This document shows positions 551-64,000 of a stretch of DNA of 64,000 nucleotides, piece after piece. The notes under the pieces are model-generated. The model was not told the DNA's origin. It was given only the letters and a program-made list of their open reading frames with translations, and did not search any database. The stretch comes from Gammaproteobacteria bacterium (GTDB lineage Bacteria > Pseudomonadota > Gammaproteobacteria > Pseudomonadales > Azotimanducaceae), in NCBI GenBank assembly GCA_963581445.1, contig CAUZON010000014.1:3672-67671 (forward strand), written 5' to 3'. The first letter of the stretch is position 1. Each line of letters starts with the position of its first letter. A program made the translations under genes and the position numbers.

Positions 551-865
551 TTAGTTAATCCATATGCCGTTGGTGACTTGGCAGTCAATAGAATCCAGCA
601 CCATATGGATCATCAGTCCCAGCCCGATTTGACGGGTTTTTGGTAAAAAACTCATAACAAGATAGAGCGCGATAAACCACGGCTGGTGCAGTGGGTGAAA
701 ACCAATACTGCAACGTCCGGCGTCATAAATGGGGTCGGAGATTAGATGATCAAGATCCACCAGCATAGTGGCCATCATCAACAGATAAGCCATCTGCCAG
801 CGGTTGTGAAAAAACTGTAAGGCAACAATGGCAGGGACAATAAAGTGCAAAGTTAGGTGGAACAT
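551..865 (-). CDS. small integral membrane protein (DUF6122-like), function unknown
   Basis: 104-aa hydrophobic ORF with VDLDHL and GFHPLH motifs. The family name is from memory only. Confidence 0.55.
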   Translation of the reverse strand: MFHLTLHFIVPAIVALQFFHNRWQMAYLLMMATMLVDLDHLISDPIYDAGRCSIGFHPLHQPWFIALYLVMSFLPKTRQIGLGLMIHMVLDSIDCQVTNGIWIN

Positions 866-999
866 TGGCGACTTTGCCCTGATTGCGGAGTGAAGGAAGG
901 AATGTTAACCGGGATACCCAATCAATGGCTGGGATATCGATATTCAAGTAGTTCCTGGAGACCCAGGAACTACATTCATCGGTCATAAACTGATGAGTA

Positions 1000-1479
1000 C
1001 TAGAATGAGCCTAGGATCGTCTCGGTCAGCTCTTCCGGCGCAGTTTTCGGACTAAAGCGCCCCACAACCTCACCGTCTTTGTTGACCAGAAACTTTGAAA
1101 AATTCCATGGTATGTCTGCATTACCTTCTTCGTCAGTTTTCTCGCTCTTGAGAAATTGATAAAGCTCACATGCATTGGCGCCATTAACTTTAATTTTGCT
1201 GAACATTTGAAAGTTAACGTTGTATTTCGTTTGCGCAAATTCAAGCACTTCTTCGTTACTACCTGGTTCCTGTGCGCCAAATTGGTTGCATGGAAAGGCT
1301 AGAACCTCGAAGGGATGGTCGGCAAATTGTTCTTGCAGAGTACGCAACCCGGCGTACTGTGAAGTTAATCCTCAGCGACTGGCCACGTTGACTATTAGGC
1401 AAGCTTTGCCTTGGTAGTCAGCAAAGTTCACTTCGCTACCTTGGATGTCGAGCATCTTGATGTTGTGGAAGACTGTCAT
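1000..1479 (-). CDS. glutathione peroxidase, predicted selenoprotein (in-frame UGA at 1372..1374)
   Basis: Track ORF 1000..1347 extends in the same frame to ATG 1477..1479, with AGGAA 8 nt upstream. The only interruption is a TGA within VNVASR-[TGA]-GLTSQY, the GPx catalytic Cys/Sec position. FPCNQFGAQEP and PWNFSKFLV motifs follow. Confidence 0.8.
1339..1358 (-). promoter_or_regulatory. candidate bacterial SECIS hairpin for the GPx UGA
   Basis: The mRNA reads A-GUACGC-CGGGUU-GCGUAC-U, a 6-7 bp stem starting 13-14 nt after the UGA. The apical loop contains GGUU. Confidence 0.5.
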
Positions 1480-1780
1480 ATTAATTTCCTGTTGTTGCGG
1501 TTCCATTCGGGATACTAACTTAGGTTGGCGGTGGCGCAAACGGGGATTGGCTTTGCTGCTGTGATCTGGTTACCATTCAGGCTCAGGAAACTTGATACTG
1601 TTTGAGTTGGGGCTGCGCCATTTTGGTGGTGTGTCTTCTTCTAATCCTAGCCAGTAAGCAGAGCCTTTGTGCGCTTAATGTGCTCAGACGGTAGGAGGTT
1701 ATGTAAATGCTAGGGCTGTGGTTCAGGAAGTAGCGATAGCTACGCAACGAGATAAATTAATTCAAAAAAGGGAAGAAACT

Positions 1781-15356: not shown

Positions 15357-16427
15357 TTAGGCGTACCGCTTGATCAATGACTGCGCGGCTAGGGCAAAAA
15401 TAATTGTCGGCAGCGCAACGGCTATGATTGAGGGCACGCCAAACACTATGGCTGTGGGTGCAAAGAGATCTTGTAGATATTTGAAACCTAATCCGACGAA
15501 GATGCCAATCGTCAGGCGTTGCCCCATGCCTGAGCTGCGCAGTGGGCCAATCACTATTGCCAGCGCTAACAGCGCCATGCCAAAAAAAGTCAGGGGTTTG
15601 AGTAGTCGAGACCAATAAACAAGCTCGTATTCAGTGGCTGAAAAATTTTGTTGATCGAGGAAAGCGATCTGATTATGAATACCTATCAATGGCATTTTGC
15701 GTGGCTCTAGAAACGCTTGGCTAGCTAGGAGCTTGGGCGTCATGGGAGTTTGCCAGAGCATCTGCGAAAAATTTTCCGCCTGAGTAGCAATATTGTCAAG
15801 TTGGGTACTTCTGCCGTTGTAGAGCATCCAAGTTCCGCTGCCCTCATTATATTTTGCAGATTCTGCGCGCAGGCTTTGCGTAAGTTGATGCCGCTCATTT
15901 ACGGAATAGCGCACGACACCCAATAAATCACCATTAGGCTTTAAGCTACTAATTTGTACATATTCACCGCCATCCCGGAACCACAGCCCACCTTTTCGGC
16001 TTAACGCGTCTTCGCCATACTGCGCCTTTTGTTTAGCACGCTCTCCGGCTTGCTCTCCCAAGGGCGCCAGATACTCGCTCAGACTAAAGCTCACGCACAG
16101 GCAAATAATGAGGGACGGAATTAGCCCTGCTAATAGTCGCATTGGCGATACGCCAGCGACCCTTGCGGCTGTCAGTTCGCCGTTTTCTGCAAGGCTGCCG
16201 AGAGACAGTAGATAGCCAAGAAATACGCAGTAAATGAGTAACTCGTCAATTCTTCGAGGCAGAGTTTGCGCCATATAGATAAGCGCATCAATAAACCCAT
16301 AGCTGGCCTGACTTTCGCCTAGCTCCTCAAACAGTGCAAATAGGCTGGTAATACTGACTAGCGATAACAGGGTCAGAAAAACTGCAAGGGTGGCGACCCG
16401 AGTTAGGTAGCTATCGAGAATTTTCAT
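15357..16427 (-). CDS. LptF/LptG-family (YjgP/YjgQ) permease
   Basis: 356 aa with six TM segments and a central periplasmic domain. The C-terminal IGPLRSSGMGQRLTIGIFVGLGF resembles LptG. No partner lptF or lptB gene is adjacent. Confidence 0.75.
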   Translation of the reverse strand: MKILDSYLTRVATLAVFLTLLSLVSITSLFALFEELGESQASYGFIDALIYMAQTLPRRIDELLIYCVFLGYLLSLGSLAENGELTAARVAGVSPMRLLAGLIPSLIICLCVSFSLSEYLAPLGEQAGERAKQKAQYGEDALSRKGGLWFRDGGEYVQISSLKPNGDLLGVVRYSVNERHQLTQSLRAESAKYNEGSGTWMLYNGRSTQLDNIATQAENFSQMLWQTPMTPKLLASQAFLEPRKMPLIGIHNQIAFLDQQNFSATEYELVYWSRLLKPLTFFGMALLALAIVIGPLRSSGMGQRLTIGIFVGLGFKYLQDLFAPTAIVFGVPSIIAVALPTIIFALAAQSLIKRYA

Positions 16428-22808: not shown

Positions 22809-24245
22809 TTAGAGCGCTGGCGCGTCTTTGTGGTGGCGAGTTGCGTCTTCAAATAGTTGCGCAATTTGCAGCAGTGCAAGGTCCCCGCGGGGCCGGCCAA
22901 CTATTTGTACGCCCACTGGTAAGCCGCTTTTTGTGAATCCTGCAGGTACGGAAATAGCGGGCAGTCCTGTCACTGTAATCATGCAGCATACCGCCATCCA
23001 ATCGAGGTAAGTTTGCATTTTCACGCCGTTTATCTCTTTAACCCACTCCTCGCTAGCGGCAAAAGGCGGTACTTGGGCTGCAGGAAGAATCAGCACGTCG
23101 TAGCATTGAAAAAACTTCACCGCCCGGGCGTATATTTTTGAGCGAGTGGCTTCTGCATGCATAATTTCGTCAGCGGAAAGTTGCATGCCCTTGTCAATAT
23201 TCCAGATAGCAGTGTCTTTTGCATCAAGCCGCCATGCAGGGAAATTTTTCTCTAAATTGTCACCTAAGGGGCGTAAGCCAGCAGCGCGCTGAACTTGAAA
23301 GACTTCCATAGCGCCTGTTAGATCCGGGGCGTCTGGAGTGACGCTAGCGCCTAAATTTGCAAAAACTTCTCCCGCTGCGCGAATAATATCGGCCACTTCC
23401 TGATCGACTTCCAAGCACCCTAGGTCAGTGCTCACCGCAACCTTTAAGGTGCTTGGTTCTCGAGTCGCGATCAGGCCATCAAAAAAATGGTATCCCGGCT
23501 CGGGGAGAGTTAGCGGATCGCTGGGGTCTGGTCCGGCCATTGCCGAAAACAGCAGAGTGGTGTCTTTGACCGTCTTAGCCATAGGCCCAGTGGTGACCAT
23601 GCGGCCATACCAAGCAAAACTTTTGTTGCAGGGCATGCGTCCAATTGAAGGTCTAAAGCCCACAACATTACAAAAGCTGGCTGGATTGCGCAGAGAGCCA
23701 CCAAGATCGCTACCATCCGCTAGCGGTAACATTTGGGTGGCTAGCGCCACAGCCGCGCCGCCACTGCTACCTCCAGCTGTTTTACTGGAGTCGTAGGGAT
23801 TTAGGGTGATACCAAAGAGCGAATTGAAGGTGCTGGAACCAAAACCGAATTCAGGCATGTTGGTGTGACCAATAAAAATTGCACCGGCTTCACGCAGGCG
23901 AGCGGCCAATTCGTCGTCTGCAGTTTCTAGACGGCTCGCAAAGGGTTTAAAACCCCAAGTTGTAGGGAAGCCTTTCATGGCTACCGCATCTTTCAGTGCC
24001 ATTGGCAGACCGTGCAGTATGCCTCTCTCCGCTACAGGCACACTATCTGCTTGCCGCGCCAGCACCATTGCATGATTATAGTCGAGCAGATTCACTATGG
24101 CATTAAACTTGGGGTTTAACGCATTTATACGTGCGTAAACGTTCTCCATTATGGCCACCGCTGTGGTGACGCCACTTTGCAGATCACGGCACAGTGAGAT
24201 AGCGTCCTGCCAAATGGGTTCTGGCGTTTGAGTTGTATTAGTCAT
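22809..24245 (-). CDS. amidase (amidase-signature family)
   Basis: The AS signature GGSSGGAAVALA and GSDLGGSLRNPA is present, along with the catalytic Lys region ALKD. Confidence 0.9.
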   Translation of the reverse strand: MTNTTQTPEPIWQDAISLCRDLQSGVTTAVAIMENVYARINALNPKFNAIVNLLDYNHAMVLARQADSVPVAERGILHGLPMALKDAVAMKGFPTTWGFKPFASRLETADDELAARLREAGAIFIGHTNMPEFGFGSSTFNSLFGITLNPYDSSKTAGGSSGGAAVALATQMLPLADGSDLGGSLRNPASFCNVVGFRPSIGRMPCNKSFAWYGRMVTTGPMAKTVKDTTLLFSAMAGPDPSDPLTLPEPGYHFFDGLIATREPSTLKVAVSTDLGCLEVDQEVADIIRAAGEVFANLGASVTPDAPDLTGAMEVFQVQRAAGLRPLGDNLEKNFPAWRLDAKDTAIWNIDKGMQLSADEIMHAEATRSKIYARAVKFFQCYDVLILPAAQVPPFAASEEWVKEINGVKMQTYLDWMAVCCMITVTGLPAISVPAGFTKSGLPVGVQIVGRPRGDLALLQIAQLFEDATRHHKDAPAL

Positions 24246-27577: not shown

Positions 27578-29020
27578 ATGGCTGATGAACAAGCGTTACA
27601 TTTTCAATCTTTGTCGAATATCTGTCGGCAGCTTAAGAGTGGGGCCTTGTCCTCTGTGGCGCTCACCCAGTATATGTTTGAACGCATTCACAGATTGGAC
27701 GGGCAAACTCTGAGTTTTGCTCGGCTGCTTGAAGAGCAAGCCTTAATAACCGCTGCGGCAAGAGATGAGGCTCGTGCCAAAGGTCAGCCTTTAGGCGCAT
27801 TGCACGGCGTACCTATTGCCATTAAGGATCTGCTCTATACCAAAGACATAGTCACCGCCTCTGGCACCTTGGTGATGCAGGACTTTCGTCCAACTTTTGA
27901 TGCAACGGTTGTCACGCGGCTCGAGCAAGCGGGCGCCGTGATCATTGGTAAAACACAATTAACAGAAGGTGCTTTTGGTCATCATCATCCAGATATTCCA
28001 GCGCCAATAAATCCCTGGCATAAGCGTGCTTGGAGTGGTGTTTCATCTTCAGGCTCCGGCGTCAGTGTTGCTGCTGGGTTAGCGTTTGCAGCCTTGGGTT
28101 CTGACACAGGCGGCAGTATTCGTTTTCCATCGGCTAGCTGTGGTCTAGTTGGACTGAAGCCCACTTATGGCAGGGTCAGTTTGTATGGCGCTTTTCCACT
28201 GGCTGGCAGCCTTGATCATATTGGCCCTATGACCCGTAGTGTAGAAGATGCCGCGCGTATGCTTAGTGTTATGGCGGGCTACGACGAAAACGATCCCGGC
28301 TCCGTGAACGCAAGTGTGCCCAATTATTTGGCCGACGTTGTTGCTGAAGGCTCTAACGAATGCTCTGAGGTGAGTTTTGCAGGCGTACGTATAGGTGTTG
28401 ACTGGGATTATGTCAGTAATGGTGTGGCGCTTGAAGTAAGCCAAGTCGTCCGCGATACGCTTGATGCACTGAGCAAACTGGGCGCTGAGATTTGCCCGGT
28501 AGTTATGCCAGAAAGTTATAAAATTTTGGCCAGTGGCTGGGCGGTGACCACGGGTGTTGAATGCGCCAAGGCGCATAGCGAATTTTACCCACAACAAAAA
28601 GCTGAGTACGGGCCAGATTTGGCAGCCCTTATTGATTTAGGCTTGCGGGTGACAGCAGAAGATTATGCTCAGTTAGAGCGCATTCGACGCGATTTCACCG
28701 CGCAAATGGAACAAGTGCTAACTCAGGTCGATGTCATGATTAGCCCATGTATGCCCATAGCCACACCGGACATTGAAGTGATGTCTGAACTTAGTCCTGA
28801 AGAAGGCCAGGCAGATTTTTTAACATTCACAGCGCCATTTGATTACTCCGGTCATCCAACACTGACATTGCCGTCAGCACTGGATGCCAATTCACGACCA
28901 GCATCGTTTCAATTGGTGGCGGTCAAACTAGGCGAAGCCAATTTGCTTAGAGTAGGCTCAATGATCGAGCAAAGTTTGCCCCGGTTGTCCTACCCGGAAT
29001 TGGATCAAGCCGGCACGTAG
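27578..29020 (+). CDS. amidase (amidase-signature family)
   Basis: IAIKD Lys region and GSDTGGSIRFPS are present. The Gly/Ser-rich loop is divergent (SGVSSSGSGVSVAAG). Confidence 0.88.
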   Translation: MADEQALHFQSLSNICRQLKSGALSSVALTQYMFERIHRLDGQTLSFARLLEEQALITAAARDEARAKGQPLGALHGVPIAIKDLLYTKDIVTASGTLVMQDFRPTFDATVVTRLEQAGAVIIGKTQLTEGAFGHHHPDIPAPINPWHKRAWSGVSSSGSGVSVAAGLAFAALGSDTGGSIRFPSASCGLVGLKPTYGRVSLYGAFPLAGSLDHIGPMTRSVEDAARMLSVMAGYDENDPGSVNASVPNYLADVVAEGSNECSEVSFAGVRIGVDWDYVSNGVALEVSQVVRDTLDALSKLGAEICPVVMPESYKILASGWAVTTGVECAKAHSEFYPQQKAEYGPDLAALIDLGLRVTAEDYAQLERIRRDFTAQMEQVLTQVDVMISPCMPIATPDIEVMSELSPEEGQADFLTFTAPFDYSGHPTLTLPSALDANSRPASFQLVAVKLGEANLLRVGSMIEQSLPRLSYPELDQAGT

Positions 29021-43793: not shown

Positions 43794-46046
43794 TTAGTAC
43801 AACGTTATGTTTAAGGTCCGATAACCAGCCGCTTCTATTGCCGCTTTAACCGGCCCGGTGCTGTCCGGGCATAGGGCGATCATGGATCCACCACCACCAC
43901 CACCGGTGAGTTTTGCACCCACTGCGCCATTTTGCCGCGCAACGTGAATCATTTCTTCTAGCTCAGGCGTGGAAAGTTGCAATGCATTGAGATAGCCGTG
44001 ACACAAATTCATCAGTTCGCCTAACTCATTCAGTTGCCCGCTTTTGACTGCGTCGCTTGCGGACATAGTGAGATGCCCGATCTGATCAAAAATGGTTTCG
44101 TAACGCCCCGGATATTGTTGCCATGAGGCTCTTACCCTGGCTACTGTGTCCGCGGTTAGGCTCTCTTTACCGGTCATGCCAATAACTAATTCTAGCGGTT
44201 GGCCAATTTTTAAAGTGCTGAATAACGGTTGCTCGTCGCGGCGCTGGTAATACAGTGGCGAGCCATAAGTGGCCACGGTGTTGTCCACACCGGAAGGTGT
44301 GCCGTGAGCGGCTTTTTCGCACTCAAAGGCCAATTCATTAATGCGCCCATCTTTGAGATCTAGTCTATAAGCGTGGTCGATGGCACGGATAATCGCCACA
44401 GCCAATGCCGAAGATCCACCTAGTCCCATTGCTCTGGGGATATGTGGGAAGACCTCGATGGTCATATCTTCTTTATCGAGGCCAAGCTGCTCTAGCAGCT
44501 GCGCGATAATGCCGGTAAAGCCGGGGTTAGTGACGCGCACTTTTTGCTCAACACCCCAGCGCGGAATGACTACATTGATACCGTCGCCACCTTTGCGAAT
44601 AGCGGCTTCCACAGCCAAGGGAATTGGTAGGGCGATAGCCGGTCTGCCATAAACCACGGCGTGTTCGCCAAGCAAAATGATTTTGCCGCAAGCGGCTTGG
44701 CGCTCGGCAACGTCAGGTTGGACGATTTTGCGCGCTAGATTTTTGGCTATCTCTTGGGCTTTCCAGACTTTAATTTCGCCCGATTCAATAAGGCTTTCTA
44801 CCACGGTTTCAAAGTGTTCGTCTGAAACGCCTGCAGAACTAGCCACGCTGCGGGCATGCAAATTCATATGGTTTTGCTGTATGCCGTCGGTGGAAAGTGA
44901 GCGTAGGGCGGCAAAGTTTTGTGCCAAGCCAATTGCCGCCATAATACCTGCCAGTTCCGACGCGTTGGGTGAGCCCAGCAGTCTATGATTGATTCTTACG
45001 CTAGGGTTGGTCTCTAACGACCCGCCTACAGTGCCTACTTTCATTGGGATAGCTATTTCACCAACCAAATAGCCGGGCTCGTCTTTGTGCCAAACAGTTA
45101 ACGCTTTATAACGCCCGCTTGCTGCTGCATAAGCATGGGCAGCAGCTTCAATGGCGCGCCAGTCGTTACCCGTGGCAATAGCCACAGCGTCTACGCCGTT
45201 CATAATGCCTTTGTTATGGGTTGCTGCACGGTAGGGATCGGCCAGTGCTAAGTCGTTAGCGAGGACTATGCCGTCTCTGACTTCTTCGCCCGTGTAGCCT
45301 TTACCTTCCAAATTTTGGATAGGTATGCGCACCTTCGCTCGAGCCACTGCGCGATCTGTAAGGTTAGATAAAATGCGTAAGAAAACTTTACCGCCTGTAA
45401 GGGTTTCGGCTAGTGAGGCAACGCCCTCGCACATGGTGTTAACCAGGTTTGCGCCCATGGCGTCTCGGGTATCTACTAGCAGGTGCATGACCACCATCAG
45501 GCGACCGTCGTGTTCTGCCTTGTAGTCAAATACTTCTATGTCTAGTGCGCCGCCGCCTCGCGCCACCATTTTTGGGTGCAAGCTATTGGCTAGCGCCAGT
45601 ATTTCTTCTTTGTTTTCTAGTAATATAGATTTGGCCGCTTCTGGATCGCCATCTATGACTACCTGTACTTGGCCAATGAGTATGGGAGTTACTTCCTCGG
45701 CAATAAACCCACCGCCCAGGCGTGCTAGGCGTGCCGCGCCGGATAGGCCTGCAACGATAGAAGGCTCTTCTACTACTAGCGGAATAACGTAGTCGCGGTT
45801 GTTAATGAGGAAGTTTAGGGCTACGCCCATGGGCAAACCAAAAACACCGATGACATTTTCTATCATCTTATCGGCCACGTTAAGCTGCACCTGGTGGCTG
45901 CCGGTCGTAAGTTGTTGCACATCCTCCTGGGAAAGCAGGCCGCGCTGATGCAGCGCTGCAATGCGTTGATTGATGTTTAAGCGGAAAAAATTTGGGATCC
46001 GAGAAGATCCCTGTTGGTCTTGTTCAGTCTTTGACTGTGATGCCAT
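43794..46046 (-). CDS. bifunctional class II HMG-CoA reductase / mevalonate kinase fusion protein
   Basis: Residues ~15-437 carry class II HMGR motifs: ENVIG, EEPSIVAG, DAMGANLVN, THNKG, GNDWR. Residues ~451-750 carry GHMP kinase motifs: GKIILLGEHAVVYG, GLGGSSALAVAI, KLTGGGGGGSMIAL. The ORF is a single uninterrupted 750-aa frame. Confidence 0.88.
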   Translation of the reverse strand: MASQSKTEQDQQGSSRIPNFFRLNINQRIAALHQRGLLSQEDVQQLTTGSHQVQLNVADKMIENVIGVFGLPMGVALNFLINNRDYVIPLVVEEPSIVAGLSGAARLARLGGGFIAEEVTPILIGQVQVVIDGDPEAAKSILLENKEEILALANSLHPKMVARGGGALDIEVFDYKAEHDGRLMVVMHLLVDTRDAMGANLVNTMCEGVASLAETLTGGKVFLRILSNLTDRAVARAKVRIPIQNLEGKGYTGEEVRDGIVLANDLALADPYRAATHNKGIMNGVDAVAIATGNDWRAIEAAAHAYAAASGRYKALTVWHKDEPGYLVGEIAIPMKVGTVGGSLETNPSVRINHRLLGSPNASELAGIMAAIGLAQNFAALRSLSTDGIQQNHMNLHARSVASSAGVSDEHFETVVESLIESGEIKVWKAQEIAKNLARKIVQPDVAERQAACGKIILLGEHAVVYGRPAIALPIPLAVEAAIRKGGDGINVVIPRWGVEQKVRVTNPGFTGIIAQLLEQLGLDKEDMTIEVFPHIPRAMGLGGSSALAVAIIRAIDHAYRLDLKDGRINELAFECEKAAHGTPSGVDNTVATYGSPLYYQRRDEQPLFSTLKIGQPLELVIGMTGKESLTADTVARVRASWQQYPGRYETIFDQIGHLTMSASDAVKSGQLNELGELMNLCHGYLNALQLSTPELEEMIHVARQNGAVGAKLTGGGGGGSMIALCPDSTGPVKAAIEAAGYRTLNITLY

Positions 46047-46980
46047 GTTTGGCCATCTCCAAATCTAATAACAAAAAATTTTGATCCGATACCCTACTGC
46101 GAAATTTTTCTAGTGCATCTTTATCTTGGCTCAGCGCTATGCCGATATCGCCGCCACCTGCGCCACAAGGTTTATAGGTGAGGCCTTGTGATACCGCCAG
46201 TTTAACCAAGCTGAGGTGCTCTGTGGTAAAAATATTCAGCTTTGCGCTTTGATCTAGAGCAAAAAGTGCTTTTTGATACTGCTTGAGCAAATCATTGCTG
46301 ATGGGGTGCTCGCACAACAAGCTACTCAGCGCAGATAAATCATCAAGCAGGCCAGAATCATCTGTTTGCCGCCAAGTATCAAAATTTGCTATGTGGTCTG
46401 TGGTTTTGGCACTTTTACCGGTCCAGACCAGCTGCCAATGCAGATCTTCTGGCCATTGGAAGGGTTGGGCGACGCCGTTTTGATACGTTATCACGCCACC
46501 GAACCAAGATGCTGCAACGTCCAAGCCGCTACCTTTGCCGCTTTGCCAGTTGCGATGAATTTGCTGTGCTTCGGCCAATGACGGTTCTTTGTCCAATAAA
46601 TGACAGAGCCCCGCATAGGTGGCGTTACATACCGCGGCTGAGGAACCTAAACCCAATTTTTGGCCAGCAGAAAAAAAATCAGAGCTGTCGGTATGCAGGT
46701 GCATGCCAGCGCATAGCTCGTTGAGGTGTTGTATACCCCAATGCTGCAATACAGCAGTGGTAAATCCGGTGGTAGGGGCAGTGGGTAATGTTTCGTCTTC
46801 TTCATTGACGCTGACGCTGGGGCTGTCAAATCCTGCGCTGCTGAAATGCCATGTTTGGTCGCTGCGCGTTTCTATGCTCACTTGAGCTGTGGCGTTCACT
46901 GCCATGATAGCGGCGGGCGCGCCAGTCAACACGGCATACTCACCCCAAAGAACCGCTTTGCCCGGTGCGGTAAACTTCAC
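46024..46980 (-). CDS. phosphomevalonate kinase (GHMP family)
   Basis: APGKAVLWGEYAVLTG, KLGLGSSAAVCNA, GSGLDVAASWFGG and KPCGAGGGDIGIA motifs. GTG start 46980 overlaps the upstream stop (GTGA). The longer Arg-rich track extension was rejected. Confidence 0.82.
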   Translation of the reverse strand: MKFTAPGKAVLWGEYAVLTGAPAAIMAVNATAQVSIETRSDQTWHFSSAGFDSPSVSVNEEDETLPTAPTTGFTTAVLQHWGIQHLNELCAGMHLHTDSSDFFSAGQKLGLGSSAAVCNATYAGLCHLLDKEPSLAEAQQIHRNWQSGKGSGLDVAASWFGGVITYQNGVAQPFQWPEDLHWQLVWTGKSAKTTDHIANFDTWRQTDDSGLLDDLSALSSLLCEHPISNDLLKQYQKALFALDQSAKLNIFTTEHLSLVKLAVSQGLTYKPCGAGGGDIGIALSQDKDALEKFRSRVSDQNFLLLDLEMAKHGITVKD

Positions 46981-47924
46981 TGGTCGATAATCTGTGCGCC
47001 TTCGCCCAGTCCACAGTCGATAATTTCTACCACGCCTGGTACTTGTGCCAATGCTGCGCTGACGGCTGGACGACTTTCCGCTGTGCACACGGCCTTAATT
47101 TGTGCCCCTGCATCTACAGTAAAAAAAACTTGATGTCCTTGGTCACGCAGGGCTCTTACGCAATCCATGCAAGCAATACTTGCGGGTGTCCAGTAGCTTA
47201 AGGTTGGGTTACTGGTCAGCATCAAGCTGTGCATTTTTAGACAGCTCAGTTCTGCAACTTGGGCCAGTTGAGTGAAATCGCGCAAACTAATTGCCTGGGC
47301 GGCCGAACTATAGTCTTCGGCTGCACCTCGCAACCATGCATTGTAAAAAGGTGAGGTTTGCTTGGATCGCTGCATACCTTGAGTAGAGTTCACAGCTTTT
47401 GCTGCTCTGCTGGTCACAGCAACGACGACTTCTAAGGGCCAGTGACTGCTGGGCGCCAGGCGCATGGCTTCCCATTGAGGCGGTACTAACGCCACAAATC
47501 CTCCGTGAATTGAACGAGCTGCGCTTGCAGACCCTTGGCGCGCCCAATTTGAACGCATCTCCTCATTTAGACCTAGGTCGCAATGTGCGTTAACGGCTGT
47601 GATGAGGGCCGCAAAGCCAGATGCAGAAGAGGCAAGACCCGCACTGGTTGGAAAGTTGTTGTCGCTATTGATGATCAGGCTTGGTACTTCAAATTCACTG
47701 CGAAGCGTCTGCAACCAGCGTTCTATCTTCGCGTCCTCAATCTGCTCACCGTTAAGGTGAAACGCGTCCTCTTTGCCTTCCTTTATCTTCGTGGTGGTGG
47801 TCAGATTTGACAGGGTAATAGACAGGTTGGGCGTAGCGGGCAGGTTGCCGGGCTTGCTTTGTTTACCCCAGTATTTCACTAGGGCAATGTTTGGGTGCGC
47901 TTGGGCTGTAGTTATATTTTGCAT
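46977..47924 (-). CDS. mvaD: diphosphomevalonate decarboxylase
   Basis: AHPNIALVKYWGK, NFPTSAGLASSASGFAAL and FFTVDAGAQIK motifs are typical of MVD. Confidence 0.9.
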   Translation of the reverse strand: MQNITTAQAHPNIALVKYWGKQSKPGNLPATPNLSITLSNLTTTTKIKEGKEDAFHLNGEQIEDAKIERWLQTLRSEFEVPSLIINSDNNFPTSAGLASSASGFAALITAVNAHCDLGLNEEMRSNWARQGSASAARSIHGGFVALVPPQWEAMRLAPSSHWPLEVVVAVTSRAAKAVNSTQGMQRSKQTSPFYNAWLRGAAEDYSSAAQAISLRDFTQLAQVAELSCLKMHSLMLTSNPTLSYWTPASIACMDCVRALRDQGHQVFFTVDAGAQIKAVCTAESRPAVSAALAQVPGVVEIIDCGLGEGAQIIDQ

Positions 47925-48176: not shown

Positions 48177-49631
48177 CTACATATAAGCGGGCGGCGGTGT
48201 GAAACCAAACCCTGCTAATTCCAGCTTTTGCGCCACGCCAATGGTGATTAAATCACCCAGCTCAGGCCCAACGATCTGCACGCCAATGGGCAATCCATCT
48301 TTATTCAGCCCTGTGGGAATAACCGTAGACGGTAGGAAGGAGACGCCAGTAAGCCCGGCCCAGAACACTTGCTCAAAGTAAGGGCGTTCTTGGTTGTCTA
48401 CTTGCAACGTGCGCTCGGCAAAGGGTCGCTGGTCGTGCTTAAAGGCGGGAGTTGCCATCATAGGTGTGAGCAAAATATCGTATTTGCCGAAGAACTCATG
48501 CCAGACCCAGCGCAGTTTGTGCCGGGCTTCATTGGCCTCGCCCCATTGCTTAAAGCTCGAAACTTGAGCGCGCAATACTTTTGAACTTTCGCGGTCGTCA
48601 TTTGGGTCTAAGTCTTTCACGTACTTGAGCAAATTCTCATAGTCCGCGTCAGACATGCGCATGGCCATAGTTGAGTGCAGTAGCTTGCGGTAAACGTCTT
48701 CTACATGTGCAGCAGAAAAATCAGGGCGCGCATCTTCATCAATCGTAGCACCTTCATCTCTTAATGCTTGAGCCACTAAATCCACTCTCGCTTCAACTTC
48801 TCGGCTGACAGGTGCCGATGCTTCGTTTTTCCAAACGCCGACTTTAAGGTCACTCAGAGGGCGGTTGCCTAACACTGGCAGGTCTAGCTTAACGCCGCGA
48901 GACGCTATCTCATCAGGACCAGCCATCACTCTTACTGCGGTTTCCAGATCAAATGCAGATCTGGCTAGCGGACCGATCACAGAAATGTCAGATCCTGCGC
49001 GACTGTCTCCTGGGGGCGCATGCCCACGCATCCAGAGTAAATTGTGGGTGGGCTTATGGCCGAATACCCCGCAGAAGTGCGCTGGATTACGAATGGAGCC
49101 TCCGATATCCGAGCCCGTTTCCAGCCCTGTTAAGCCAGCAGCTAGCGCTGCAGCGGAACCGCCAGAAGAACCGCCGGGAATACGCTCGTGGTCATAGGGG
49201 TTATTAGTTGTGCCGTAAATTTCGTTGTAGCTTTGAAAATCAGCCAAAGACAGCGGTACATTGGTTTTACCAAAGAGTGTAACGCCGGCTTGTTTGAGTT
49301 TTTTTACAGACTCGGCATCCTCTTTTGGCACGTTGTCTGCCCATGCCGGATTGCCCCATGTGGTGGGCGTACCCGCAACGTTATAGGATTCCTTCACTGT
49401 CATAGGTACACCGTGAAGAGGGCCGCAAGATTCACCTCGCGCCATCTTGGCATCCGCTTTCTCGGCATCTTTCAATGCCTCTTCGCGGATATCCACAATG
49501 ATCGCATTGAGGTCACCGTTGTATTGGTCCACGCGACCTAAATAGTGATTAAGTAGCTCGACTGCGGAAATTTCTTTGTTTTGTATTTTAGCGGCCAACT
49601 GTGTTGCCGAAAGAAATGCTAGTTCGCTCAT
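48177..49631 (-). CDS. amidase (amidase-signature family)
   Basis: MTVKE Lys region, GGSSGGSAAALA and GSDIGGSIRNPA. Start taken at ATG 49631 with GGGAGGGAAG RBS. Confidence 0.9.
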   Translation of the reverse strand: MSELAFLSATQLAAKIQNKEISAVELLNHYLGRVDQYNGDLNAIIVDIREEALKDAEKADAKMARGESCGPLHGVPMTVKESYNVAGTPTTWGNPAWADNVPKEDAESVKKLKQAGVTLFGKTNVPLSLADFQSYNEIYGTTNNPYDHERIPGGSSGGSAAALAAGLTGLETGSDIGGSIRNPAHFCGVFGHKPTHNLLWMRGHAPPGDSRAGSDISVIGPLARSAFDLETAVRVMAGPDEIASRGVKLDLPVLGNRPLSDLKVGVWKNEASAPVSREVEARVDLVAQALRDEGATIDEDARPDFSAAHVEDVYRKLLHSTMAMRMSDADYENLLKYVKDLDPNDDRESSKVLRAQVSSFKQWGEANEARHKLRWVWHEFFGKYDILLTPMMATPAFKHDQRPFAERTLQVDNQERPYFEQVFWAGLTGVSFLPSTVIPTGLNKDGLPIGVQIVGPELGDLITIGVAQKLELAGFGFTPPPAYM

Positions 49632-49818
49632 GGTTCTTCCCTCCCGAAAAAGTGCCAATAAGTTTTAGAAGTCAGCTTGGACTGTGCAGGGTTAGCTGGA
49701 AATTTTCAAGGTATGGGGTATTTGGGTATGTTGGAAAAGGTTTGGGGACTGCCGGGCTGACGGTTGTACTCCAGGCTAAGAGTTTGCTGTGGGGTAGAGC
49801 ACTTTGCCGGCGTTGTTT

Positions 49819-55048: not shown

Positions 55049-55534
55049 TTAATTTTTTTTTGCTCTCTGAGCATTGATAAACTCAATCAAAGTCAGTGTT
55101 TCTGCTGCGTCCATACGCCCTACGGGTGAGTTGCTGTAAGTCGAGGCCATGACCTTGCCGCTCTTGGTGAGTATGAATTCGCTTGGCTGGATAAAGTCTC
55201 TACCCTCATCCCACCAAGCGCCTAGGCTGTCGCCTTGTGCTCGTGTGACCCCATGGGCTACTGGAAAGCCCAGTGGTTGTGCCACCTCACTGGTTTTCTC
55301 TAGCGAGTCTACCGCGGCGGCAATCATCGTTACCCCTTGTGCTGCAAGCGCTTCACTGCGCTCTTCATAGCCGGCTAACAGTCGGCGGCAGTAAGGTCAC
55401 CAATGGCCGCGATAAAACAGCACTACGGTAAAAGGGCTGGTGAGATCAGCAGGGAGCTTTATTTCACTGCCGTCTACGCTTGTGAGGGTAATGTCTGGAA
55501 ACATATCCCCCGGTTGAAGTTTTTCGACCATCAT
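55049..55534 (-). CDS. AhpC/TSA (peroxiredoxin-like, thioredoxin-fold) protein, predicted selenoprotein with UxxC motif
   Basis: Track ORF 55049..55327 extends in the same frame to ATGATG 55529..55534 (AAGGA RBS). The only interruption is TGA 55397..55399 within VVLFYRGHW-[TGA]-PYCRR, the position of the first Cys in the redox CxxC motif. Confidence 0.78.
55370..55386 (-). promoter_or_regulatory. candidate SECIS hairpin for the peroxiredoxin-like UGA (weak)
   Basis: The mRNA reads GCCG-ACUGUUAGC-CGGC, starting 10 nt after the UGA codon, with GUU in the loop. The stem is only 4 bp. An alternative 6-bp hairpin GAGCGC-AGUGAA-GCGCUU lies at 55346..55363. Confidence 0.3.
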
Positions 55535-62910: not shown

Positions 62911-64000
62911 TTAGCTTGATCTGTTGTTAGCCACAGTCTTGGCTGGCGCAGGATTTCTAATCAATTGTGCCGATGGCGTTTTGCGCTCGTACTTCTCAGC
63001 AGGCGTGTTAACAATCTCCAACAATTCTCGTTGCTTGTCACCCGCCTTAATACGCTCGGCGCTCACGCTGCCATAGACGGTGGAGCGTTGCTGCGGATCG
63101 CGATTCAGATTGCGCACGATGGTCTGCATCTGTCGGGGCGAGGTTTCTTGGCCATGCTGAGTGCCAGCGGCGCGGCTGATAGATTCGTTCATCAGGGTGC
63201 CGCCTAGGTCGTTACAACCTGCATTGAGGCAAGCCTCTATACCCTTATGGCCCATCTTTACCCAGCTCGCCTGAATGTTATCTATTTGGCCATGCAGTGC
63301 TAAACGTGCAACCGAGTGCAACAGAACAGCTTCGCGGAACGTTGGTCCTTTGCGCGCTTTGCCCTTCAGGTACATTGGCGCTTCCATATGAATGAACGGC
63401 AGCGGCACAAATTCGGTGAATCCACCGGTTTTTGCTTGTAGCGCGCGCACCCGCAAAAGATGCCGTGCAAGGTGCTCGTGCTTTTCAACATGGCCATACA
63501 TTACGGTGGCGGTCGTTTTGAAGCCCACTTCGTGAGCCGCTTCCATGACATCTAACCATTGCTGGGTATTGATCTTATCAGCGCAAATCACCGCGCGAAC
63601 TTCGTCGTCGAGAATTTCCGCTGCTGTGCCGGGTAGCGTACTGAGCCCGGCATCCTTGAGTTGGGTTAGGTAGGTTTTAAGATCCATCTCAAGGGTCGCG
63701 GCACCCTGCCAAACCTCTAGCGGTGAGAACGCATGTATGTGCATTTCTGGCGCCGCAGCTTTGACGGTTTTAATGATATGGGTGTAGGTATCGCCAGTGT
63801 ACTCCGGGTGTATGCCGCCTTGCATGCACACCTCGGTCGCGCCTCTGTCCCAAGCTTCGACCGTGCGGCGCGTAATTTCTTCGTCGGAGAGGTCATAAGG
63901 TCTACCTCTCAGATTCTCTGACAACTTACCCTTTGAGAACGCGCAGAACTGGCATTTGAAATAACAAATATTGGTGTAATTGATATTACGGTTAACAACA
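62911..64000 (-). CDS. radical-SAM FO synthase, CofH-type domain (CofH/FbiC family), 5' end outside the window
   Basis: Reading on from the track ORF gives NINYTNICYFKCQFCAF (CxxxCxxC). CMQGGIHPE, TVMYGHVE, GFTEFVPLPF and NIQASWVKMG are CofH-like rather than MqnC/E-like. Confidence 0.7.
   Translation of the reverse strand, partial: VVNRNINYTNICYFKCQFCAFSKGKLSENLRGRPYDLSDEEITRRTVEAWDRGATEVCMQGGIHPEYTGDTYTHIIKTVKAAAPEMHIHAFSPLEVWQGAATLEMDLKTYLTQLKDAGLSTLPGTAAEILDDEVRAVICADKINTQQWLDVMEAAHEVGFKTTATVMYGHVEKHEHLARHLLRVRALQAKTGGFTEFVPLPFIHMEAPMYLKGKARKGPTFREAVLLHSVARLALHGQIDNIQASWVKMGHKGIEACLNAGCNDLGGTLMNESISRAAGTQHGQETSPRQMQTIVRNLNRDPQQRSTVYGSVSAERIKAGDKQRELLEIVNTPAEKYERKTPSAQLIRNPAPAKTVANNRSS

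What the first reader, a model, noticed from the sequence alone, without database searches (positions are those of the whole stretch)
1000..1479. Glutathione peroxidase with UGA at the catalytic position: a probable selenoprotein missed by ORF calling
The ORF track shows only a 115-aa C-terminal fragment (1000..1347). Reading the same minus-strand frame from ATG 1477..1479 (AGGAA 8 nt upstream) gives MTVFHNIKMLDIQGSEVNFADYQGKACLIVNVASR-TGA-GLTSQYAGLRTLQEQF... There is exactly one in-frame stop, TGA at 1372..1374. It occupies the slot of the catalytic Cys/Sec in the GPx motif VNVAS-x-C/U-G-x-T. The other catalytic-tetrad segments are intact: Gln in FPCNQFGAQEP, and Trp/Asn in PWNFSKF. A perfect hairpin, GUACGC-CGGGUU-GCGUAC (1340..1357), starts 14 nt 3' of the UGA. 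Its position and GGUU loop are as expected for a bacterial SECIS. Most bacterial GPx homologues use Cys, so a Sec form would be both a mis-annotation trap and a marker of the Sec-decoding trait.
Basis: partly seen in the sequence, partly recalled or inferred. Interest (0 to 1): 0.75.

Follow-up and report, generated by a model that had tools for sequence, protein, structure and literature searches.

The report
Selenocysteine glutathione peroxidase gene, mis-called

Summary
On the minus strand, ATG 1479..1477 to TAG 1002..1000 is one 159-codon glutathione peroxidase frame (Pfam GSHPx, E=3.5e-42). Its only in-frame stop is TGA 1374..1372, at the catalytic Cys/Sec position. A 7-bp hairpin with loop CGGGUU follows 13 nt downstream.

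Comparative data support the selenoprotein reading:
- 58 of 82 related genes from other species carry TGA at this codon.
- In those genes the six hairpin codons are almost frozen at synonymous sites. In Cys forms they vary freely.
- One stem pair switches G-C to A-U through coordinated amino-acid changes.
- The commonest loop apex, GCAGGUCUGC, is identical to that of E. coli fdhF.
- Five independent metagenome assemblies carry the identical gene, TGA included.
- TGA also ends 7 of 35 ordinary genes here, so it is not a Trp codon.
- A second TGA-split redox gene (Prx-like, UxxC, 55049..55534) lies in the same window.

selA, selB, selC and selD are not in the window or in about 14.7 kb of flanks. 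The rest of the genome could not be searched.

Bacterial Sec-GPx is a published family, so this is a new member of a known kind. Public databases hold it truncated to 115-122 aa, or full length with a false Trp.

The parts
1000..1479 (-). Complete glutathione peroxidase coding sequence: 159 codons plus the TAG stop at 1002..1000, with Sec at codon 36.
   Evidence: Translation. Pfam GSHPx PF00255, E=3.5e-42, residues 4-111. E=1.8e-43 to 1e-19 against solved GPx structures. Identical in 5 independent assemblies.
1372..1374 (-). In-frame UGA read as selenocysteine (residue 36), the peroxidatic residue in the motif VNVASR-U-GLT.
   Evidence: Aligns to the catalytic Cys of 3cmi and 2p5q. TGA sits at the same codon in 58 homologous genes of other species and TGC/TGT in 24. 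TGA is an ordinary stop for 7 of 35 other genes in the window.
1339..1358 (-). SECIS-type hairpin: 7-bp stem AGUACGC/GCGUACU with loop CGGGUU, beginning 13 nt after the UGA. It encodes Q-Y-A-G-L-R-T.
   Evidence: Fold. The helix is 98.5% paired across 59 sequences, with a G-C to A-U double change in 5 of them. Synonymous entropy is 0-0.5 bit here against 0.85-2.0 in Cys forms. Helix energy is -7.25 against +3.8 kcal/mol.
1486..1490 (-). Shine-Dalgarno-like AGGAA, 6 nt upstream of ATG 1479..1477.
   Evidence: Read directly from the sequence. Function inferred.
948..973 (-). Perfect 11-bp hairpin GTAGTTCCTGG-GTCT-CCAGGAACTAC, 26 nt after the stop codon. It may mark the transcript end, but no T tract follows.
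   Evidence: Read directly from the sequence. The terminator scan did not report it, so the role is uncertain.

Best explanation
The locus is an intact gene for a small (159-aa) GPx4-like glutathione peroxidase whose peroxidatic residue is selenocysteine.

Decoding (inferred mechanism). While the ribosome translates the mRNA, the hairpin 13 nt downstream of UGA36 acts as a bacterial SECIS element. It has a 7-bp stem and a G/U-containing apical loop about 20 nt from the UGA. It recruits SelB-GTP-Sec-tRNA(Sec), so UGA is read as Sec instead of stop. The ribosome then melts the hairpin and reads it as Q-Y-A-G-L-R-T.

Catalysis (inferred mechanism). The selenolate of Sec36 is activated by Gln70, Trp125 and Asn126 and reduces hydroperoxides. 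The canonical resolving Cys of thioredoxin-dependent bacterial, plant and yeast Cys-GPx (position 82) is Ala here. It is Ala or Val in all 59 Sec forms. The selenenic acid is therefore most likely recycled by external thiols such as glutathione, as in GPx4. A less likely route is through the clade-specific Cys104.

Shown here: the gene anatomy, conservation of TGA at the catalytic position, RNA-level constraint on the hairpin, and absence of the resolving Cys.

Inferred: SelB binding, actual Sec insertion, and the reductant.
For: 1. Single frame, GPx family, catalytic alignment.
2. TGA at the catalytic codon in 58 of 82 homologous genes. The hosts are labelled Gammaproteobacteria/Pseudomonadales, Acidimicrobiia, Myxococcales and Alphaproteobacteria. 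The TGA forms make one clade with 3 nested Cys forms.
3. Codons +5 to +10 (CAG TAC GCA GGT CTG CGT) have synonymous entropy of 0-0.5 bit in Sec forms. In Cys forms it is 0.85-2.0, and in the flanking codons of the same Sec genes 1.3-2.4.
4. The helix is 98.5% paired. Pair 28-37 is G-C in 53 sequences and A-U in 5, through coupled Ala-to-Thr and Arg-to-Cys substitutions. U-A changes to U-G in 16.
5. The nested Cys forms L008, L014 and L042_3106 have lost the helix.
6. The majority apex GCAGGUCUGC equals the SelB-binding apex of E. coli fdhF.
7. The gene is 100% identical, TGA included, in 5 independent assemblies.
8. TGA is used as a true stop by 7 of 35 Pfam-supported genes.
9. A second gene in the window (Prx-like, FYRGHW-U-PYC) also has TGA at its redox Cys. 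That TGA is retained in a 56%-identical relative, together with a covarying hairpin.
10. Sec-GPx (UxxT) and Prx-like (UxxC) are published bacterial selenoprotein families.
Against: - No selA, selB, selD or tRNA-Sec was found in the 64-kb window or in about 8.2 kb of left and 6.5 kb of right flank. The rest of the genome could not be searched.
- The window's loop variant (C-GGGU-U, shared with L001-L003, L050 and L066) differs from the majority A-GGUC-U type.
- It lacks the bulged U known in fdhF, and its loop sits about 3 nt further from the UGA than in fdhF.
- Covariation is thin: one pair, five sequences. The stem is otherwise almost invariant.
- No Rfam family matches.
- There is no experimental evidence of selenium incorporation. 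The 2026 review lists bacterial GPX-like only as 'predicted with high confidence'.
Confidence: 0.9

Rival explanations
1. The TGA is a genuine stop. The gene would be a pseudogene, or only the C-terminal 115-aa fragment would be made, as current annotation implies.
For: Gene callers produce exactly this: a 115-aa 'glutathione peroxidase' in NCBI and JGI records. TGA is a normal stop elsewhere in the window. No Sec machinery was seen in the window.
Against: - A stop at exactly the catalytic codon is retained in 58 species across several phyla. The upstream 35 codons stay intact and conserved, with N31, A33 and S34 invariant.
- The gene shows no other stops and no frameshifts in the window or in the five identical assemblies.
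- A 115-aa fragment lacks the peroxidatic residue.
- RNA-level constraint on the hairpin has no explanation under this model.
Confidence: 0.03
2. The TGA is decoded as a standard amino acid: Trp as in genetic code 4, or near-cognate read-through. This matches the full-length database entries that show W at this position.
For: Several public protein entries read VASR-W-GLT (P0001, P0002, P0004, P0009, P0124, P0131, P0134).
Against: - Those entries are gene-caller output, not protein data.
- 7 of 35 Pfam-supported genes in the window end in TGA.
- Only two coding frames have an internal TGA, and both place it at a redox Cys position.
- Trp cannot serve as the peroxidatic residue of a GPx (established enzymology of the family).
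- The conserved downstream hairpin is unexplained by this model.
Confidence: 0.02
3. The TGA is a sequencing or assembly error in a normal TGC/TGT Cys-GPx gene.
For: A single-base change separates TGA from TGC or TGT.
Against: The 480-nt gene is 100% identical, TGA included, in five independent assemblies from different samples. TGA recurs in 58 other species.
Confidence: 0.005

Closest known systems
Bacterial Sec-containing glutathione peroxidase (GPX-like, UxxT motif), as catalogued in the Sargasso Sea and GOS selenoproteomes and the 2026 prokaryotic selenoproteome review
   Same: It has the PF00255 domain, Sec in the U-G-x-T motif at the peroxidatic position, and a SECIS hairpin directly downstream of the UGA with a G in a small apical loop. 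It is known from marine metagenomes.
   Different: Nothing essential differs. This copy comes from an uncultured gammaproteobacterium (nearest named relative: Ca. Azotimanducaceae). It carries the rarer loop variant CGGGUU instead of A-GGUC-U.
E. coli fdhF SECIS element (SelB-binding hairpin of formate dehydrogenase H)
   Same: It lies in the coding region immediately 3' of the UGA. It is a short stem capped by a GGU-containing loop. In the majority of Sec-GPx genes the apex GCAGGUCUGC is identical to fdhF over 10 nt.
   Different: The window's apex is GCCGGGUUGC. There is no bulged U in the stem. The loop is about 3 nt further from the UGA. There is no extended lower stem pairing with the UGA region as in fdhF.
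Mammalian GPx4 / Schistosoma GPx (monomeric Sec-GPx without a resolving Cys)
   Same: It is about 160-170 aa and aligns end to end (residues 4-149) without the insertions of tetrameric GPx1-3. It has Sec plus the Gln/Trp/Asn tetrad and no Cys at the resolving position.
   Different: It uses a bacterial in-frame SECIS rather than a 3'-UTR SECIS. The substrate (phospholipid hydroperoxides?) and the reductant are untested.
Thioredoxin-dependent Cys-GPx (yeast Gpx3/Hyr1, poplar GPx5, most bacterial GPx homologues)
   Same: These are the best-scoring solved structures (E about 2e-43). They share the fold-defining motifs and a similar length.
   Different: Those enzymes use a peroxidatic Cys plus a resolving Cys (F-C at position 82). 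Here position 36 is Sec and position 82 is Ala. The resolving Cys is present in 0 of 59 Sec forms, against 21 of 21 outgroup Cys forms.

Membership tests
Glutathione peroxidase family (Pfam PF00255 GSHPx) | Significant full-length match to the family profile. | tested here: met
   E=3.5e-42, 142.8 bits against a cut-off of 27, profile positions 1-108 of 108.
Glutathione peroxidase family (Pfam PF00255 GSHPx) | Catalytic tetrad: peroxidatic Sec/Cys, Gln, Trp and Asn at the conserved positions. | tested here: met
   U36 aligns to the catalytic Cys of 3cmi and 2p5q. Q70, W125 and N126 are invariant in 83 of 83 aligned sequences.
Bacterial selenoprotein (SelB/SECIS-dependent UGA recoding) | In-frame UGA at a position occupied by a redox-active Cys in homologues, with coding sequence conserved on both sides. 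| tested here: met
   58 TGA and 24 TGC/TGT at the same codon, with flanks conserved.
Bacterial selenoprotein (SelB/SECIS-dependent UGA recoding) | Stem-loop immediately downstream of the UGA, with a small apical loop containing G roughly 16-37 nt from the UGA. The numeric range is the published bSECIS search criterion as I recall it. The G-in-small-loop feature is confirmed in PMC1088965. | tested here: met
   7-bp stem, loop CGGGUU starting 20 nt after the UGA. Conserved, with synonymous-site constraint, only in TGA forms.
Bacterial selenoprotein (SelB/SECIS-dependent UGA recoding) | The genome encodes selA, selB, selC (tRNA-Sec) and selD. | not testable with these tools
   None was found in the window or in about 14.7 kb of flanks. 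Indirect support comes from a second TGA-at-redox-Cys gene in the window.
Bacterial selenoprotein (SelB/SECIS-dependent UGA recoding) | Selenium is actually incorporated at the UGA. | not testable with these tools
   This needs 75Se labelling, mass spectrometry or a reporter assay.
Thioredoxin-dependent 2-Cys type GPx (atypical 2-Cys peroxiredoxin-like mechanism) | Resolving Cys in the F-C-x-x-x-[YF] segment, 17 residues after the Asn of NQF. | tested here: not met
   Ala82 in the window. Cys is present in 0 of 59 Sec forms, against 22 of 24 Cys forms.
Rfam-curated RNA families (any SECIS model) | Match at or near a family's gathering score. | tested here: not met
   No hit at gathering thresholds in the window. 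The only hit at 1250..1450 is a chance-level snoRNA match, E=2.4.

The most novel reading that the evidence does not exclude
The Sec-GPx clade may be a horizontally spread cassette shared by aerobic aquatic Gammaproteobacteria, Acidimicrobiia, Myxococcota and others. Its nearly frozen SECIS, with an apex identical to E. coli fdhF, would be a portable SelB-recognition module. Its chemistry may also differ from both classic types: the canonical resolving Cys82 is always absent, while a clade-specific Cys104 (43 of 59, in C-[D/E]-L-Y) and Cys27 (36 of 59) appear. These are absent from all 21 outgroup Cys forms. A Se-S intermediate with Cys104 would define a new GPx recycling route.
Probability: 0.15. 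Interest if true: 0.45.

Novelty: new member of a known kind. Interest (0 to 1): 0.3.

Why it matters
- It corrects an annotation. The gene is absent, truncated to 115-122 aa, or carries a false Trp in public protein sets. One example is an NCBI MAG record, 90% identical and annotated as a 115-aa glutathione peroxidase.
- Together with the Prx-like UxxC gene 54 kb away, it marks this uncultured marine-type gammaproteobacterium as a likely selenocysteine user. That bears on selenium demand in aquatic heterotrophs.
- The comparative set assembled here (59 Sec and 24 Cys forms) is a clean natural experiment. It shows RNA-level selection inside a coding region, and its relaxation after Sec-to-Cys conversion.
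- It does not change what is known about selenoproteins.

Tried and rejected
- Rfam at gathering thresholds over the whole window, and at E<=10 over 1250..1450: no SECIS or other relevant family.
- ARAGORN on the window and on 89 related or flanking loci: no tRNA-Sec.
- Pfam scan of 30 window ORFs plus SelD and GTPase motif searches: no SelA, SelB or SelD. The one [C/*]GCK motif hit, at 15453, lies in a stop-ridden frame.
- Flank extension by exact-protein look-up on both sides of the window: no sel genes.
- Single-sequence folding statistics: not significant (z = -0.33 for GPx, +0.60 for Prx-like). The single-sequence argument was dropped in favour of comparative evidence.
- Promoter scan of 850..1750: nothing found. 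The terminator scan gave two plus-strand hits at chance level.
- Relaxed scan for further TGA-containing redox motifs (Sec near the N-terminus): 36 candidates, but only GPx and Prx-like look like real genes.
- Considered and rejected: pseudogene, code-4 Trp decoding, and sequencing error (see rival explanations).
- Structure prediction was not run. Sequence matches to solved GPx structures are already at about E=2e-43 for the best chains, and the tool returns no coordinates for measuring the Sec36-Cys104 distance.

Full report
**1. Observation**

The minus strand from ATG 1479..1477 to TAG 1002..1000 is one 160-codon frame. It translates as MTVFHNIKMLDIQGSEVNFADYQGKACLIVNVASR*GLTSQYAGLRTLQEQF...ILGSF*. 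The single internal stop is TGA at 1374..1372.

The mechanical ORF list holds only the pieces 1000..1347 (115 aa) and 1372..1539 (55 aa). AGGAA lies at 1490..1486, 6 nt before the ATG. With U replaced by C, the product matches Pfam GSHPx over the whole profile at E=3.5e-42.

The hairpin is real. The stem is AGUACGC/GCGUACU (1358..1339) with loop CGGGUU, starting 13 nt after the UGA. On its own it is not statistically unusual (z = -0.33).

**2. Is the TGA at the catalytic residue?**

Against solved structures the protein aligns end to end with poplar GPx5 (2p5q, E=1.8e-43), yeast Gpx3/Hyr1 (3cmi, 2.1e-43), Schistosoma GPx and human GPX4. Residue 36 falls on the peroxidatic Cys of the VASKCG motif.

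In an alignment of 83 homologues, Gln70, Trp125 and Asn126 are invariant.

**3. Relatives**

A scan of one genome per bacterial species returned 80 loci with 82 GPx genes. Of these, 58 have TGA at exactly this codon and 24 have TGC or TGT.

The TGA genes come from MAGs labelled Gammaproteobacteria/Pseudomonadales (including OM182, Halioglobus and Ca. Azotimanducaceae), Acidimicrobiia/Ilumatobacteraceae, Myxococcales/Kofleriaceae and Alphaproteobacteria. In a neighbour-joining tree they form one clade. Three Cys forms are nested within it (L008, L014, L042_3106), and the other 21 Cys forms lie outside it.

The frames are intact on both sides of the TGA in every case. This is conservation, not decay.

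**4. RNA-level constraint**

- **Synonymous sites.** In the 59 TGA forms, codons +5 to +10 (Q-Y-A-G-L-R) read CAG TAC GCA GGT CTG CGT almost without synonymous variation (entropy 0, 0.12, 0.50, 0.47, 0.47, 0 bit). Flanking codons in the same genes vary at 1.3-2.4 bit. The same codons in Cys forms vary at 0.85-2.0 bit.
- **Base pairing.** The 7-bp helix is paired in 98.5% of cells. Pair 28-37 is G-C in 53 sequences, A-U in 5 and G-U in 1. The A-U cases change the protein (Ala to Thr, Arg to Cys) to keep the pair. Pair 25-40 alternates U-A (43) and U-G (16). RNAalifold recovers the same helix.
- **Helix energy.** The fixed helix averages -7.25 kcal/mol in Sec forms (57 of 59 at or below -4). In Cys forms it averages +3.8 (1 of 24 at or below -4). 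The nested Cys forms have lost it.
- **Two apex types.** A-GGUC-U occurs in 53 sequences. C-GGGU-U occurs in 6: the window, L001-L003, L050 and L066.
- **Comparison with fdhF.** The majority apex GCAGGUCUGC is identical over 10 nt to the apex of the E. coli fdhF element, fetched from NC_000913.3. The GPx loop sits 3 nt further from the UGA and the stem has no bulged U.

**5. Error, code 4 or pseudogene?**

- The 480-nt gene is 100% identical, TGA included, in five independent metagenome assemblies.
- Among 35 Pfam-supported ORFs in the window, 7 end in TGA, so TGA is a normal stop here.
- A scan of all six frames for TGA flanked by long open stretches found only two that look like real split genes. 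One is this gene.
- The other is a Prx-like gene at 55049..55534 (minus strand). It has TGA at 55399..55397 in the motif FYRGHW-U-PYC and matches AhpC-TSA at E=1.3e-18.
- Its TGA is retained in five close metagenomic relatives and in one 56%-identical relative, whose downstream hairpin covaries (GCCGCC-AGUUG-GGCGGC against GCCGAC-UGUUA-GCCGGC). More distant relatives have TGC or TGT.

Two independent genes with TGA exactly at a redox Cys is what a Sec-decoding organism looks like.

**6. What could not be shown**

No tRNA was found in the window, and no tRNA-Sec in 89 related or flanking loci. No SelA, SelB or SelD domains were found in 30 window ORFs or in the flanks. The rest of the genome is out of reach with the tools and caps available. 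Sec insertion itself is inferred.

**7. Mechanism**

The UGA/hairpin arrangement is that of SelB-dependent recoding in bacteria.

Enzymatically the protein is a short GPx4-like form. It aligns contiguously with GPX4 (residues 4-149), but only partly with the tetrameric GPx1 and GPx2.

The resolving Cys that defines thioredoxin-coupled Cys-GPx is at position 82, 17 residues after the Asn of NQF. It is Ala or Val in all 59 Sec forms and Cys in 21 of 21 outgroup Cys forms. Recycling by external thiols (glutathione) is therefore the most likely route. This is an inference.

The Sec clade has its own frequent cysteines: Cys104 in 43 of 59 and Cys27 in 36 of 59. Both are absent from all 21 outgroup forms. 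Their role is unknown.

**8. Comparison with what is known**

- Bacterial Sec-GPx was already listed as a known family in the Sargasso Sea selenoproteome (5 sequences, UxxT motif, bacterial SECIS shown; PMC1088965).
- It was also listed in the GOS selenoproteome: 40 Sec sequences against 3,287 Cys homologues. Prx-like 1 (UxxC, pfam00578) had 225 (PMC2398784).
- A 2026 review lists the GPX-like protein (PF00255, UxxT) and the Prx-like thiol:disulfide oxidoreductase (PF00578, UxxC) as 'predicted with high confidence' (PMC13188914).

The window's gene is therefore a new member of a known kind.

**9. Annotation state**

- In the assemblies that carry this very gene, callers either skipped it or called 115-aa and 44-aa pieces.
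- Clusters at 90% identity hold 115- and 122-aa 'glutathione peroxidase' fragments. One is NCBI MFQ3346860.1 from a Ca. Azotimanducaceae MAG, 90% identical to the window's fragment.
- Full-length entries read VASR-W-GLT, that is, TGA translated as Trp.

The nearest named taxon suggests a member or neighbour of Ca. Azotimanducaceae (Pseudomonadales). This rests on one protein and is tentative.

**10. Verdict**

Confidence that this is a genuine Sec-decoded GPx gene is about 0.9. The interest is modest: the kind is well known, and the added value is an annotation fix, a marker of the Sec trait, and a clear comparative picture of SECIS constraint.

Noticed in passing
window 55049..55534 (-); TGA 55397..55399; hairpin 55370..55386: This is a second probable selenoprotein gene. 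It is Prx-like (AhpC-TSA, E=1.3e-18) with motif FYRGHW-U-PYC (UxxC). It was called as 92-aa and 44-aa fragments in public assemblies. The TGA is retained in L088-L092 and in the 56%-identical L093, with a covarying hairpin; all more distant relatives have Cys.
   Followed up: partly
protein ids P0001, P0002, P0004, P0009, P0124, P0131, P0134: Full-length database versions of this GPx carry Trp at the Sec position (VASR-W-GLT). This presumably comes from gene calling with genetic code 4 on short contigs. It is a silent error that would pass as a complete protein.
   Followed up: yes
alignment of 83 GPx genes; window residues 27, 82, 104: The Sec clade never has the canonical resolving Cys82 (0 of 59). 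It often has Cys104 (43 of 59, in C-[D/E]-L-Y) and Cys27 (36 of 59). Neither occurs in the 21 outgroup Cys forms. This may point to an alternative resolving thiol.
   Followed up: partly
L042: 3106 and 3573: A MAG labelled Ilumatobacteraceae carries a Cys-GPx and a Sec-GPx as adjacent tandem genes. The Cys copy is nested in the Sec clade and has lost the hairpin.
   Followed up: no
window 43794..47924 (-): This is a mevalonate-pathway cluster. It contains a 750-aa HMG-CoA reductase fused to a GHMP-kinase domain, a further GHMP kinase, and diphosphomevalonate decarboxylase.
   Followed up: no
window 62911..64000 (-) and L168 14011..19746: F420 biosynthesis genes lie at and just beyond the window end. 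An 826-aa radical-SAM CofG/CofH-type fusion runs off the window, followed by CofC, CofD, an F420 ligase and an F420 oxidoreductase. The 337-aa ORF listed at 62911..63924 is only part of the first gene.
   Followed up: no
window 22809..24245 (-), 27578..29020 (+), 48177..49658 (-): Three full-length amidase (PF01425) paralogues lie within 27 kb, alongside amidohydrolases and a BCCT transporter.
   Followed up: no
window 948..973 (-): A perfect 11-bp inverted repeat with a 4-nt loop lies 26 nt after the GPx stop codon, with no T tract. The terminator scan did not flag it.
   Followed up: no
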